From assembly GCA_964016885.1 (NCBI GenBank), contig OZ024747.1, positions 558,001 through 622,000 on the forward strand: 64,000 bases of DNA, read 5' to 3'. A model generated the notes under the pieces. That model was not told the DNA's origin and did no database searches. It was given only the letters and a program-made list of their open reading frames with translations. Positions 566 through 6,666 of the stretch are shown in pieces; the first letter of the stretch is position 1, and the number at the start of each line of letters is the position of its first letter. The translations under genes and the position numbers were made by a program. Source of the stretch: Eledone cirrhosa (lineage: Eukaryota).

Positions 566-623
566 ATGATCCGACAATTCCTTTCAATAATACTGTTTGT
601 TTTATTCCTATCTACAAAAGCAG
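566..623 (+). CDS. Ferritin-like exon 1 (signal peptide)
   Basis: ATG ATC CGA...AAA GCA G|gtatgt; [19 protein letters not shown]; phase 1 matches the next exon. Confidence 0.8.
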
Positions 624-3600
624 GTATGTAACTTTGCATTCACACAAACATACACACACGTCTTCATGAGTATGAATGTGTGTGTGTTTGTATGTGGGTC
701 ACTGCCTTCTTTTACTGGTTTCAATTATTGGACTGTGGCCATGCTGGAGCACTGCCTTGATTTAGTCTACCATATCAACCCCAGTACTGTGGCCATGCTG
801 GGGCACTGCCTTAGTCTACCATATCAACCTTTCTTTTCTTTCAAGTTATTTTAATGATCTCTATTTGCTGAACTGCTAAGTTATGTGATATAAACTCAGA
901 TACTGCCGGAAACGTAGACCTAGCTAAGGGGTTCATCATCATCATCATCACTTAACTGTCCTTTTCCCTCCTAGTTTGGGTGGGATGTCAGTACTGAAGT
1001 GAAGCTACTGACCTCTCAGGCTGGGACGATGTGGACAGGTTCCCACTCACATTCTACTGAGTGTCACATCTCACTCACACATGTTCCCACACTCTATTGA
1101 GTGTCACATCTCACTCACACATGTCCCTACACTCTACTGAGTGCTTAGAATCTCTTAGGAAAGAATCGCTGGACAGGTTTTTCAGGCAAAACCAACTGGC
1201 AGAAGACCCAGAGCAAGATAGTTGGATAACATACATGAGCGGGCTGTCATGCTTGGGGATCCAGCTGGATTAATTGGAGAAGGTTGCTTCTGACAGGACC
1301 CACTGGAAGAAGTGTTTGAGGACTGTGCCCCCACCCATCCCCAGGAATAAGTAGGCAGAGGGGAAGAAGATCACCCAATAAAATATCACAACACATTATT
1401 ACATAATCGATGTGAAACACTATAACACCAACAACTTCCATTCTACGCAATTACTATCTAATACTAATCACACAGTACAGACCACATAGTACGTACTAAA
1501 ACACTAACACTACCCAACAAAATAGCATAACTCATACTGAACACAGCCCTCACAACAGTTAAAGAGTTAACTCATACTGAACACAGCTTCACAACAGATG
1601 GAGGGTTAAACATGGATGAGTAAATAAACAACTCTACAGATAAAAACAAAGGAAGGAGTTGTAAAATCAAATCCTAAACTATTAGGAGATGGATATCACA
1701 AGATTCTCTCTCTACACCCCTTCTCAGACTGGTATTAATAACACAAGAGGATTCTCTCTCTACACCACTTCTCAGACTGGTATTAATATCACAAGAGGAT
1801 TCCCTCTCTACACCCCTTCTCAGACTGGTATTAATAACACAAGAGGATTCTCTCTCTACACCCCTTCTCAGACTGGTATTAATAACACAAGAGGATTCTC
1901 TCTCTACACCCCTTCTCAGACTGGTATTAATATTTTCAAGTAACATATTGAAACAGGACTGGACAGCAGCTAAAGAATCAGTCGGATGATATTTGTAAAT
2001 CACATGATGTTGCTTAAACTCTGACATGCACTTGATAGGTTTTCTACCGAGTGCTACATGGCACAAATGAAAGACAGTGTTGTGGCGACTGAGACATCCT
2101 GTTGAGAAAGCCTGCACAGTGTACTTTACATGTGAGTGGAGTTACACTGATATAGGTGAGAAGTTCAAGTATCCTGAGGCTGTTTTCAGAAGTGAAATAT
2201 ATATTATCTAAACTGTACCACAGAATATACCTTGTGGGGATCCTTTTTTTTCTGTCTGTAGAATGGTTAATATGCACAATGTTTATTGTACTAGGTTTAT
2301 TCTTAATCTAAAATACTACACATAACCAAAGAACACAGGGCGGCATATAGAGCAGTGCAGAGAGTGGCATATAGGACTGCACTGGATGCTGCAGAAAAAG
2401 TTGTATACATTTATGCACTGAATGTATGCAAATGTATGTCAAATACAAAGTAGAACTTCACTTTTGTTTTATTTTTTTAAATTTTATTTACCTTCCCTTT
2501 TTTTCAGATGACACAAATGACTGCTGTATTTTGTCGCAATATCATTTGAACTATGCCAAGGCAAGCTATCAATATCTAGAAAAGGTACTTTATTTCTTTG
2601 TGTATCACATGAGTATATATTGAGGTGGTACTAACATAACTTCCTCATACCACTGCATATGGAATATATTTATATATAATAAACATACAAAAGACTTGCT
2701 ATGAATTAAGTTTTGATCATGTCACATCTATCTCAGTAGTGGTGTAAATGTTTTCCCAGAAAATATCAATTTTATTTTATTCTATTTTAAATTAAAGTTC
2801 AATTTTCTTCCGTTGCTTGAATGAATCAATTCTTAGTAAATAAAAATTCCTAAACTAGCTGAAGATTGTCAGCATCAGTTTCTATCAATTTATGTAAAAT
2901 ATAGGGAATCCTGGTGATTGTATTTATTTTACATATTAATAAACCTAGGTAAGACCAGGTACTGCTACTAGTTTGTTTATGTAAATCTATTTATTTCATT
3001 ATTTGCAATGGTTTGTTTGTTTATTCTTAGGCTTTCTTCTTGAAAAAGAACAATGCTTGGCCTGGACTCCATAAATACTTCTTTAATTTAGCACAAGAGA
3101 AAAATTATGCTGCAGACTTAATATCCCGATTCAGAACAATAAAATGTATTAATGGAAATGATAAAGTTTTAAACTTGAAGAGGGTAAGTTATTAACATTT
3201 GATGATAGTAATGGATGTACAACAGTTTATATATACTTCACATGTATTATTGGTAGAGGGTTGGGCGCCATGCTTTCTAGCATAGTTACGTCCCTTTACA
3301 GTCTGAGTTCAAATCCCGCCGAGGTTTACTTTGCCTTTCATCCTTACGGGGTCGATAAAATAAAGTACCAGTAATGTACTGTGTAATTGCTGGCCTTGTG
3401 CCTAAAGTAGAAACAATTGTGTTATGAAAAATCATATTTCTCTAAACTTATGTAGACTTACTTTCTCCACATCATGTCAGAGTATTTTACTGTGTTCTGT
3501 CTTGAACAAAACTTCTAATGTCGTCCTATGTGTTGTTGACCAGTCAAATGTTTCTCTCAGACTTTTGATGGTGTCCATAGTAACCGGTTGAAGGATTCTT

Positions 3601-6600: not shown

Positions 6601-6666
6601 ACATATGCACGGAGAACCTACGATTATAAGGACTTTCCTGGATATGAAACTATAGAGAAATCATAG
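566..6666 (+). CDS. Secreted, divergent ferritin-like protein (yolk-ferritin/L-chain-like), 6 coding exons, 207 aa
   Basis: Exons 566-623, 2508-2584, 3031-3183, 4339-4374, 5759-5854, 6463-6666 have GT-AG boundaries, compatible phases and total 624 nt. Protein: signal peptide [19 protein letters not shown], then [39 protein letters not shown]...[12 protein letters not shown]...[15 protein letters not shown], aligning by eye to ferritin helices A-D (ELYASYVYLSM, KYFLHQSHEEREHA, ALHLEKNVNQSL, PHLCDFIETHYLNEQ). Three introns sit at canonical ferritin intron positions. Confidence 0.85.
1690..1935. repeat. 48-bp minisatellite (~5 units)
   Basis: caagaggattctctctctacaccccttctcagactggtattaataaca repeated. 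Confidence 0.95.
2508..2584 (+). CDS. Ferritin-like exon 2
   Basis: ttttcag|AT GAC...GAA AAG|gtactt; [26 protein letters not shown] (helix A). Confidence 0.88.
3031..3183 (+). CDS. Ferritin-like exon 3
   Basis: ttcttag|GCT...AGG|gtaagt; [51 protein letters not shown] (helix B). Confidence 0.9.
3250..3418 (+). mobile_element. tRNA-type SINE (abundant family)
   Basis: B-box-like gagttcaaatccc followed by the core gcctttcatccttacggggtcgataaaataaagtaccag. Other copies at ~5552-5745+, 7925-8125+, 27260-27430-, 28060-28200-, 41110-41260+, 45230-45365-, 49295-49400+, 49790-49990+, 50225-50370+, 60580-60790-, 61215-61360-, 62470-62625-. Confidence 0.85.
4339..4374 (+). CDS. Ferritin-like exon 4 (36-nt mini-exon, BC loop)
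   Basis: tttttcag|GGA...CGT|gtaagt; [12 protein letters not shown]; phase 0/0. Confidence 0.7.
5759..5854 (+). CDS. Ferritin-like exon 5
   Basis: tgtttcag|ACA...CAT|gtaagt; [32 protein letters not shown] (helix C). Confidence 0.88.
5860..6295. repeat. (GTT/GCT/ACT)n trinucleotide low-complexity tract in ferritin intron 5
   Basis: Seen directly; explains the poly-L/V/T ORFs. Confidence 0.95.
6463..6666 (+). CDS. Ferritin-like exon 6 (terminal)
   Basis: tttgcag|GTG...[33 protein letters not shown]...IWDNY...EKS* (helices D/E plus C-terminal extension). Confidence 0.88.

What the first reader, a model, noticed from the sequence alone, without database searches (positions are those of the whole stretch)
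566..6666. Secreted ferritin with an L-chain-like dead ferroxidase centre and lost three-fold channel residues
Seen: a 6-exon gene, largely missed by the ORF track, encoding a signal peptide plus a ferritin fold. By-eye alignment to human H-chain numbering gives E27->Y, E62->K, H65->A, E140->Y, with Y34, E61, E107 and Q141 kept. Established: Y27 and K62 are the substitutions that inactivate vertebrate L-chains, and D131/E134 (here H and V) line the iron-entry channel. Also seen: an N-terminal CC, two adjacent N-glycosylation sequons (NRT, NAT) and a Tyr-rich C-terminal extension. Inference: a convergently L-like, non-catalytic secreted ferritin, either a partner subunit in a heteropolymer (as insect LCH is) or a repurposed yolk, structural or other-metal-binding cage in a haemocyanin-blooded animal.
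Basis: partly seen in the sequence, partly recalled or inferred. Interest (0 to 1): 0.75.

Follow-up and report, generated by a model that had tools for sequence, protein, structure and literature searches.

The report
Octopus ferritin pair without iron site
An octopus-type genome has a spliced gene for a predicted secreted ferritin (iron-storage cage protein) that lacks the iron-oxidising residues and faces a second such gene, so the two likely build an iron-poor cage with some other job.

Summary
The gene is real. Six GT-AG exons give 207 aa, and one RNA contig skips all five introns at the predicted sites. It is a ferritin: own-genome HMM E 4.6e-9, a Pfam hit on the Argonauta orthologue, ferritin fold matches and shared intron positions.

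'L-like' is only half right. L chains keep the nucleation acids and D131/E134, and this protein lacks them. H131 also occurs in a secreted paralogue with an intact centre. The CC and the sequon positions are not conserved.

Orthologues in Argonauta and Octopus are 36-41% identical, yet 8 of 10 replaced functional residues are invariant. A 19-23 aa aromatic tail is also kept. That pattern points to a rebuilt interior, as in artemin, rather than decay.

New here: 16 kb upstream, head-to-head, lies a second predicted secreted ferritin with 0 of 7 centre residues and a micro-exon loop (no RNA check). This is the insect HCH/LCH layout without the catalytic partner.

Best reading (0.45): subunit of a repurposed, iron-poor secreted cage. 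Main rival (0.35): LCH-like partner of the genome's catalytic secreted ferritins. Dead invertebrate ferritins are already known.

The parts
566..623 (+). Exon 1: start codon and predicted signal peptide (19 aa), phase-1 donor
   Evidence: only candidate in the signal-exon scan of window 1-2500; RNA contig covers 577 onward and the joint to exon 2
2508..2584 (+). Exon 2 (77 nt): helix A; C25-C26 at 2522-2527, E27->Y at 2552-2554, Y34 kept at 2573-2575
   Evidence: same length and phases as exon 2 of the secreted paralogue at C2:269.16 Mb
3031..3183 (+). Exon 3: helix B and start of loop L; E61 kept (3097-3099), E62->K (3100-3102), E64->Y (3106-3108), H65->A (3109-3111)
   Evidence: helix B 74% identical among three octopod lineages
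4339..4374 (+). Exon 4: 36-nt symmetric micro-exon in loop L; starts sequon N107, which spans the 4/5 joint
   Evidence: no such exon in the four other complete intron-bearing ferritin genes assembled
5759..5854 (+). Exon 5: sequon N110 and helix C; E107 kept (5798-5800)
6463..6666 (+). Exon 6: helices D and E and stop; D131->H (6469-6471), E134->V (6478-6480), H135 (6481-6483), E140->Y (6496-6498), Q141 kept (6499-6501), position 144->R (6508-6510)
6604..6663 (+). 20-aa C-terminal tail beyond the end of cytosolic ferritins; 19-23 aa with 4-5 aromatic residues in all four orthologues compared, D-Y-x-x-F columns invariant
6942..6947 (+). Candidate polyadenylation signal (AATAAA)
   Evidence: not tested

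Best explanation
This spliced single-copy octopod gene encodes a predicted secreted ferritin-fold subunit that lacks the iron-oxidising and iron-nucleating residues and likely builds an iron-poor cage, probably with the equally centre-less ferritin predicted head-to-head beside it. Shown: gene structure, splicing, ferritin ancestry, loss of E27/E62/H65/E140 and of three of four L-type nucleation acids, invariance of the replacing residues, and a kept aromatic tail. Inferred: it enters the ER and is N-glycosylated on loop L; K62, R144 and Y140 fill the old centre around E107 and stabilise the bundle (a K62-E107 salt bridge in L chains is recalled, from no call); the tail folds back on the de-acidified cavity face of helices B and D, as artemin's loop L' does. 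The cage would then serve as an extracellular storage, carrier or structural particle (egg or haemolymph) rather than an iron mineraliser.
For: (1) 8 of 10 replaced centre, nucleation and channel positions are invariant in 4 orthologues, against 44 of 155 core positions (hypergeometric p 0.0007; within helices B+D 8 of 9 against 29 of 60, p 0.01), at 36-41% identity. (2) Helix B 74% identical among three lineages, loop L 17%, helix C 28%; cytosolic paralogues 73/61/59%. (3) Acidic residues in helices B+D: 2-8 in the family, 10-14 in four intact ferritins; pI 8.1-8.8 against 5.1-6.0. (4) Tail of 19-23 aa with 4-5 aromatics in 4 of 4; 0-12 aa and no aromatics in the other five complete ferritins. 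(5) Artemin has the same syndrome: centre, nucleation site and three-fold channel lost, with a C-terminal loop covering the nucleation face (PMC9742257, passages). (6) The head-to-head neighbour, ATG 16.0 kb away, has 0 of 7 centre residues, so the insect-type gene pair here has no catalytic member. (7) No conserved cysteine.
Against: No assembly, localisation or tissue data; expression rests on one contig of depth 3.9 from a run of unknown tissue. Tail pLDDT is under 50 in both models, so tail packing is not shown. The genome has two secreted ferritin genes with centre residues that could supply catalysis. One shares H131/H135 and the 77-nt exon 2 with this gene. The neighbour is predicted only, is 15% identical and is no closer to this family than shuffles; its adjacency could be an old local duplication, like the two cytosolic genes 16 kb apart on C20. 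The p values treat related sequences as independent (three lineages in effect), and positions 57 and 144 were added to the site list after I saw the alignment.
Confidence: 0.45

Rival explanations
1. LCH-like structural partner: it co-assembles in the ER with the genome's catalytic secreted ferritins (C2:269.15 Mb, C2:349.0 Mb) into an iron-carrying haemolymph or yolk ferritin, to which it adds stability rather than chemistry.
For: Both C2 genes have signal exons with phase-1 donors. The complete one keeps 7 of 7 centre residues; the partial one keeps the 5 that are visible. H131/H135 and exon layout are shared with the complete one. Y34, E61, E107 and Q141 are kept. Precedents: insect 12+12 HCH/LCH cages (PMC4783870, PMC5751084, passages) and sponge HdF2 (E27Q, E62K, H65S, E134A) found in complexes with major ferritins (PMC8395497, sections 2.2 and 3). 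Nearest Atlas clusters are arthropod ferritins named heavy-, light- and lower-subunit-like (0.87-0.90; leads only).
Against: No nucleation acids and a basic pI; no conserved Cys for inter-subunit bonds; the head-to-head neighbour is not catalytic and the catalytic genes are on another contig; helix A and loop L, which form outer and dimer contacts (recalled), diverge fast.
Confidence: 0.35
2. A cage that binds another metal (Cu or Zn) at histidines near the three-fold axis.
For: H131 and H135 (i, i+4) are invariant in 4 of 4 orthologues.
Against: The same two histidines occur in the secreted paralogue with an intact iron centre, so they may be inherited. No other new conserved His or Cys. No metal data.
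Confidence: 0.08
3. It no longer forms a 24-mer and acts as a secreted monomer or dimer (ligand, egg-coat or mucus component) that uses the helix B/D face to bind a partner.
For: Helix C, loop L and the D-E/E region are poorly conserved (17-28%), and conservation is concentrated on one face.
Against: The helix E motif and D182 are kept, all five ferritin helices are predicted, and even artemin keeps the cage.
Confidence: 0.1
4. A decaying duplicate with no function.
For: Very long stem branch and 15-18% identity to the other complete ferritins of the genome; the O. vulgaris record lacks the helix B segment.
Against: Intact frame, spliced RNA, full-length orthologues in two genera and invariant new residues.
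Confidence: 0.02

Closest known systems
Octopod orthologues: Argonauta hians GAB1604365.1, O. bimaculoides XP_014769886.1 (LOC106868931; UniRef name 'Ferritin'), O. sinensis XP_029645557.1 (LOC115219519), O. vulgaris CAI9733175.1
   Same: Same family: signal peptide, dead centre, aromatic tail; 36-41% identical to the window protein for the three full-length ones compared; one clade at 100/100.
   Different: Annotated as uncharacterised; their ids appear in no full text searched. CC and sequon positions differ.
Insect secreted light-chain homologue (Fer2LCH; Trichoplusia ni 1z6o_A)
   Same: Secreted, no ferroxidase centre, gene head-to-head with another ferritin gene (PMC3999511, passages).
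   Different: The neighbour here is not catalytic; no conserved Cys; 6% identity over the structural match (Z 10.9, rmsd 3.6, 163 aligned); orthology not shown.
Artemin (Artemia; 7rvb)
   Same: Ferritin fold with centre, nucleation acids and three-fold acids lost, plus a C-terminal extension (PMC9742257).
   Different: Artemin is thiol-rich, 45-50 aa longer than ferritin and an intracellular chaperone (location recalled); this protein has a signal peptide, a tail of about 20 aa and no conserved Cys. The structural match (Z 10.9, rmsd 4.6, 170 aligned) is no better than to other ferritins.
Vertebrate L chain
   Same: Y27, K62; Y34, E61 and E107 kept.
   Different: L keeps E57/E60/E64 and D131/E134 and has no signal peptide.
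Molluscan secreted / yolk ferritins (Lymnaea, Biomphalaria, chiton Cs90734, oyster EKC42967.1 and EKC42968.1)
   Same: Signal peptide and divergent sequence; replaced metal-binding residues are described as common in secreted-type ferritins (PMC6351634, passages).
   Different: The ~40-aa loop insertion is absent here (net +4 aa against cytosolic ferritins) but predicted in the neighbour. Lymnaea yolk ferritin keeps the centre (recalled; paper not held).
Atypical invertebrate ferritins (sponge HdF2)
   Same: E62K and loss of E27, H65, E134; function open (PMC8395497).
   Different: HdF2 has no signal peptide and is of ordinary ferritin length.

Membership tests
Eukaryotic ferritin (PF00210) | Sequence homology | tested here: met
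   Spliced product E 4.6e-9 against own-genome ferritin HMM, 0 of 1000 shuffles; orthologue P0001 over the Pfam cut-off; P0002 and single exons not
Eukaryotic ferritin (PF00210) | Four-helix bundle plus helix E | tested here: met
   On orthologues, not the window protein. Family-only model pLDDT 47, all listed Foldseek rows ferritins, TM 0.53-0.62, E > 0.001; VIA top Z 12.5, rmsd 3.1, 143 aligned. Second model pLDDT 58, E 1.4e-5, but its alignment held ferritin fragments
Eukaryotic ferritin (PF00210) | Conserved intron positions (after helix A, in loop L, before helix D; all phase 0) | tested here: met
   Two introns in identical alignment columns in all intron-bearing ferritin genes assembled; the loop intron within 6 columns
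Eukaryotic ferritin (PF00210) | 24-subunit cage | not testable with these tools
   Needs SEC-MALS or EM
H-type (ferroxidase) subunit | E27, Y34, E61, E62, H65, E107, Q141 | tested here: not met
   4 of 7 kept; the three site-A ligands E27, E62 and H65 are lost (residue sets from PMC13026281 and PMC7931202)
Vertebrate L chain | Y27 and K62 in the dead centre | tested here: met
   (F27 in Argonauta)
Vertebrate L chain | Nucleation glutamates 57, 60, 61, 64 (H numbering) | tested here: not met
   N, Q, E, Y in 4 of 4 orthologues
Vertebrate L chain | D131/E134 three-fold channel | tested here: not met
   H and V/T
Insect LCH | Signal peptide and no ferroxidase centre | tested here: met
   Hydrophobic N-terminus in 4 of 4 (no SignalP); centre lost
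Insect LCH | Gene head-to-head with a catalytic HCH gene | tested here: not met
   A head-to-head ferritin gene is predicted, but with 0 of 7 centre residues; no other ferritin-like gene found in C7:388-622 kb
Insect LCH | Conserved cysteines for disulfide cross-links | tested here: not met
   No Cys column shared by all orthologues
Insect LCH | 12+12 heteropolymer with a catalytic subunit | not testable with these tools
   Needs co-purification
Artemin | Loss of centre, nucleation acids and three-fold acids; C-terminal extension | tested here: met
   extension shorter than artemin's
Artemin | Thiol-rich, conserved cysteines | tested here: not met
   2-3 unconserved Cys in the mature chains
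Artemin | Tail packed on the cavity face; chaperone activity | tested here: inconclusive
   Tail pLDDT under 50; activity not testable
Molluscan yolk ferritin | About 40-aa insertion in loop L | tested here: not met
   Exons 3-5 give 95 aa against 91 in cytosolic ferritins; predicted in the neighbour (up to 117 aa)
Molluscan yolk ferritin | Deposition in oocyte yolk | not testable with these tools
   Tissue of run X4 not on record

The most novel reading that the evidence does not exclude
Octopods turned an ancestral head-to-head pair of secreted ferritin genes into a two-subunit, wholly iron-free extracellular cage. One subunit lines the cavity with an aromatic tail and the other displays a micro-exon-encoded, splice-variable loop outside: a secreted counterpart of artemin, used in eggs or blood.
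Probability: 0.2. Interest if true: 0.78.

Novelty: new variant of a known kind. Interest (0 to 1): 0.52.

Why it matters
Ferroxidase-dead ferritins recur across invertebrates and their function is an open question (PMC8395497). This family gives a clean test case: the replacing residues are fixed across octopods while the rest of the protein drifts, and both a dead and a catalytic candidate partner are now identified in one genome. If the dead pair assembles alone it would be a secreted, repurposed ferritin cage. If it assembles with the catalytic subunits, cephalopods have an insect-style secreted heteropolymer. Either bears on how cephalopods move iron or provision eggs.

Tried and rejected
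Pfam on single exons: 0 of 4 for the window gene and 0 of 4 for the neighbour. PDB sequence search with neighbour exons: two weak non-ferritin rows for the D/E exon, none for the helix B exon. Dimer prediction for the O. sinensis orthologue: no answer, score 0.00, alignment not used; not counted either way. Alignments A3 and A4 misplaced fragments and were dropped; A5 keeps a 3-column gap artefact in helix D. Trees (10 and 11 rows) do not place the family: stem about 4.8-5.0 changes per column, grouping with the complete secreted paralogue neither shown nor rejected (p-AU 0.32). So convergence versus shared ancestry with insect LCH is unresolved. No close paralogue in the genome, but these searches also missed the neighbour, so further divergent copies are not excluded. 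No Rfam hit in the window and no IRE-like motif in bases 1-700. The run search listed no holder on record as RNA; X4 is read as RNA from its spliced contig. The 3' exons of the C2:349.0 Mb gene were not found in 250 kb; an assembly gap lies 9 kb downstream of its helix B exon. Ten literature searches found no paper on this family. The 533-ferritin table of PMC8395497 could not be read and may list Octopus entries. An argonaut eggcase proteome reports a ferritin (10.1101/2021.07.10.451900, one passage), but which one could not be told. Earlier-finding look-ups by sequence, place and words gave nothing on this gene (loose matches only). Rejected: the CC as a conserved disulfide, and loss of D131/E134 as proof of a closed channel.
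Full report
Gene model. The window is C7:558,001-622,000 of a 3.0-Gb genome; its closest relatives are octopod proteins. Six exons (566-623, 2508-2584, 3031-3183, 4339-4374, 5759-5854, 6463-6666) have GT..AG introns and give 207 aa with a hydrophobic first exon, Cys at 25, 26 and 84, and sequons at 107 and 110. 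Of 4 runs laid, X1-X3 gave contigs through the introns. X4 gave one 570-nt contig (depth 3.9) that matches 577-6623 without mismatch and skips all five introns. The tissue is not on record.

It is a ferritin. The spliced product scores E 4.6e-9 against an HMM of five other ferritins of this genome, and 0 of 1000 shuffles reach it. Homologue searches returned proteins of four species: Argonauta hians, O. bimaculoides, O. sinensis and O. vulgaris. No decapod or other mollusc sequence appeared in these searches, which is weak evidence given the divergence. The Argonauta protein passes the PF00210 cut-off; the O. bimaculoides one has no Pfam hit. A family-only AlphaFold model of the Argonauta protein is poor (pLDDT 47) but has four long helices. 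All its listed Foldseek rows are ferritins, none at E <= 0.001, and the top VIA rows are ferritin-like folds (Z 12.5, rmsd 3.1, 143 aligned). A second model, of the O. sinensis protein, reached pLDDT 58 and E 1.4e-5, but its alignment held ferritin fragments. Independently of any fold, introns 2 and 5 fall in the same columns and phase as in the other ferritin genes. The window protein itself was not folded whole.

Residues. I numbered on the genome's intact cytosolic ferritin, whose positions match the oyster set (E25, Y32, E59, E60, H63, E105, Q139; channel D129, E132; PMC13026281, passages and Discussion). The two full-length Octopus proteins have no gap between the intron and helix B, which fixes the register. 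Site A (E27, E62, H65; PMC7931202, passages) is gone, so canonical ferroxidase activity is not expected; this follows from established chemistry and was not assayed.

Not an L chain. Human L rows show Y27 and K62 but keep E57, E60, E61, E64, D131 and E134. This family has N57, Q60, E61, Y64, H131 and T/V134. The three-fold change says little by itself: a secreted paralogue at C2:269.15 Mb with 7 of 7 centre residues also has H131 and H135, and T. ni HCH has T134. The CC is not conserved and the sequons move, though each of the four proteins compared has at least one in loop L.

A rebuilt interior. The orthologues are 36-41% identical to the window protein, and the two Octopus species 78% to each other. 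Helix B is 74% identical, loop L 17% and helix C 28%. Eight of 10 replaced functional positions are invariant, against 44 of 155 core positions (p 0.0007; 8 of 9 against 29 of 60 within helices B and D, p 0.01). These p values are generous: three lineages in effect, and two sites were added after seeing the alignment. Helices B and D hold 2-8 acids against 10-14 in intact ferritins. A 19-23 aa tail with 4-5 aromatics is kept in 4 of 4. Artemin shows this combination, with a C-terminal loop covering the former nucleation face (PMC9742257, passages). That the tail packs likewise here is inference; both models leave it under pLDDT 50.

Other ferritins of the genome. Three cytosolic genes with intact centres (C20 twice, C1), one intronless copy with a degenerate centre (C11), and two genes with signal exons on C2. 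One C2 gene is complete and shares with the window gene the phase-1 first intron and a 77-nt second exon. The other keeps the five centre residues visible and runs, after a 27-nt candidate micro-exon, into an assembly gap.

A second dead ferritin, head-to-head. Scanning 70 kb upstream showed a helix D/E-like last exon on the minus strand at C7:499,269 (E 0.0055 in 134 kb). Splice-site scoring gave a helix C exon (500,159; 99 nt; top score of the region), a helix B exon (534,225; 141 nt), a helix A exon (540,526; 86 nt) and a signal exon (542,534; 76 nt). Its ATG is 16.0 kb from the window gene's ATG, pointing away. The 189-aa core scores E 4.5e-9 on the ferritin HMM, 0 of 1000 shuffles (953 scored); this is partly circular, as I picked exons with ferritin in mind. 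It has Y27, F34, K61, N62, L65, Y107 and L141, so 0 of 7 centre residues. Between helices B and C, 14 of 15 strong short candidates in 33.9 kb are symmetric and open in phase 0, against 0 of 1 on the other strand and 2-3 per 110-250 kb in four control scans. The 13 I joined add 117 aa without a stop. No RNA could be laid on this gene. It is 15% identical to the window protein and no closer to its family than shuffles. Insect HCH and LCH genes lie head-to-head and are co-regulated (PMC3999511, PMC4783870, passages); here neither member is catalytic. The oyster 'yolk ferritin' and 'ferritin, lower subunit' have consecutive accessions (EKC42967.1, EKC42968.1; PMC13026281), a hint only that such a pair is old in molluscs.

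Mechanism. Most likely (0.45) the protein is a secreted, glycosylated shell subunit of an iron-poor cage, alone or with the neighbour's product, with the cavity face covered by its own tail. The main rival (0.35) is an LCH-like partner of the catalytic C2 subunits. Other-metal binding (0.08), a non-cage role (0.10) and decay (0.02) are less likely. Nothing here tests a link to copper or haemocyanin.

Novelty. Dead ferritins are known in insects (PMC5751084, passages), sponges and many other invertebrates (PMC8395497, outline, passages, sections 2.2 and 3; supplement unreadable), and secreted molluscan ferritins with replaced metal ligands are described (PMC6351634, PMC3299671, passages). Ten full-text searches found no paper on this octopod family. 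Other papers seen as passages and of little bearing: PMC6635378, PMC7850002, PMC11719527, PMC13207978, PMC5685644 and bioRxiv 10.1101/2021.07.10.451900. The Lymnaea yolk ferritin paper was not held; what I say of it is recalled, as are the K62-E107 salt bridge and which helices face the cavity. The finding is a new variant of a known kind.

Noticed in passing
G000:C7:499,102-542,534, minus strand (L071-L074, L030), upstream of the window: Predicted second secreted ferritin gene, head-to-head with the window gene, with 0 of 7 centre residues and about 13-14 symmetric micro-exons (15-45 nt) in loop L, several with duplicated flanks; no RNA check.
   Followed up: partly
L002:1450-1968 minus (G000:C11:42.354 Mb): Intronless, open ferritin copy without signal peptide that has lost E27, Y34, E61, E62 and H65 and is basic (pI 8.7); likely a retrogene, a third centre-less ferritin in this genome.
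   Followed up: partly
G000:C2:269,153,820-269,176,602 plus (L018-L020): Complete secreted ferritin gene with all 7 centre residues but H131 and H135 at the three-fold region.
   Followed up: partly
G000:C2:349,008,184 to about 348,979,865 minus (L014, L015, L017): Secreted ferritin gene with a Cys-containing N-terminus and a 27-nt candidate micro-exon; 3' exons not found, next to an assembly gap.
   Followed up: partly
window 26082-26420 minus: Exon with pentatricopeptide-repeat similarity (PPR_2 E 3.4e-5, under cut-off), part of a neighbouring gene.
   Followed up: partly
window 63319-63738 plus: Pro/Gln-rich frame that looks like the first exon of a YLPM1-like gene (name recalled; no Pfam hit).
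   Followed up: no
window 9822-10520 plus, 15230-15925 minus, 31091-32035 plus: Broken LINE reverse-transcriptase fragments (RVT_1); a long tandem repeat at about 54,800-57,700.
   Followed up: no
window about 3250-3420 and 5570-5720; 5857-6300: Very high-copy SINE-like repeats in introns 3 and 4 and a long trinucleotide-type repeat at the start of intron 5.
   Followed up: no
P0004 (O. vulgaris CAI9733175.1): The record lacks the 50-aa helix B segment; probably a gene-model omission of exon 3.
   Followed up: no
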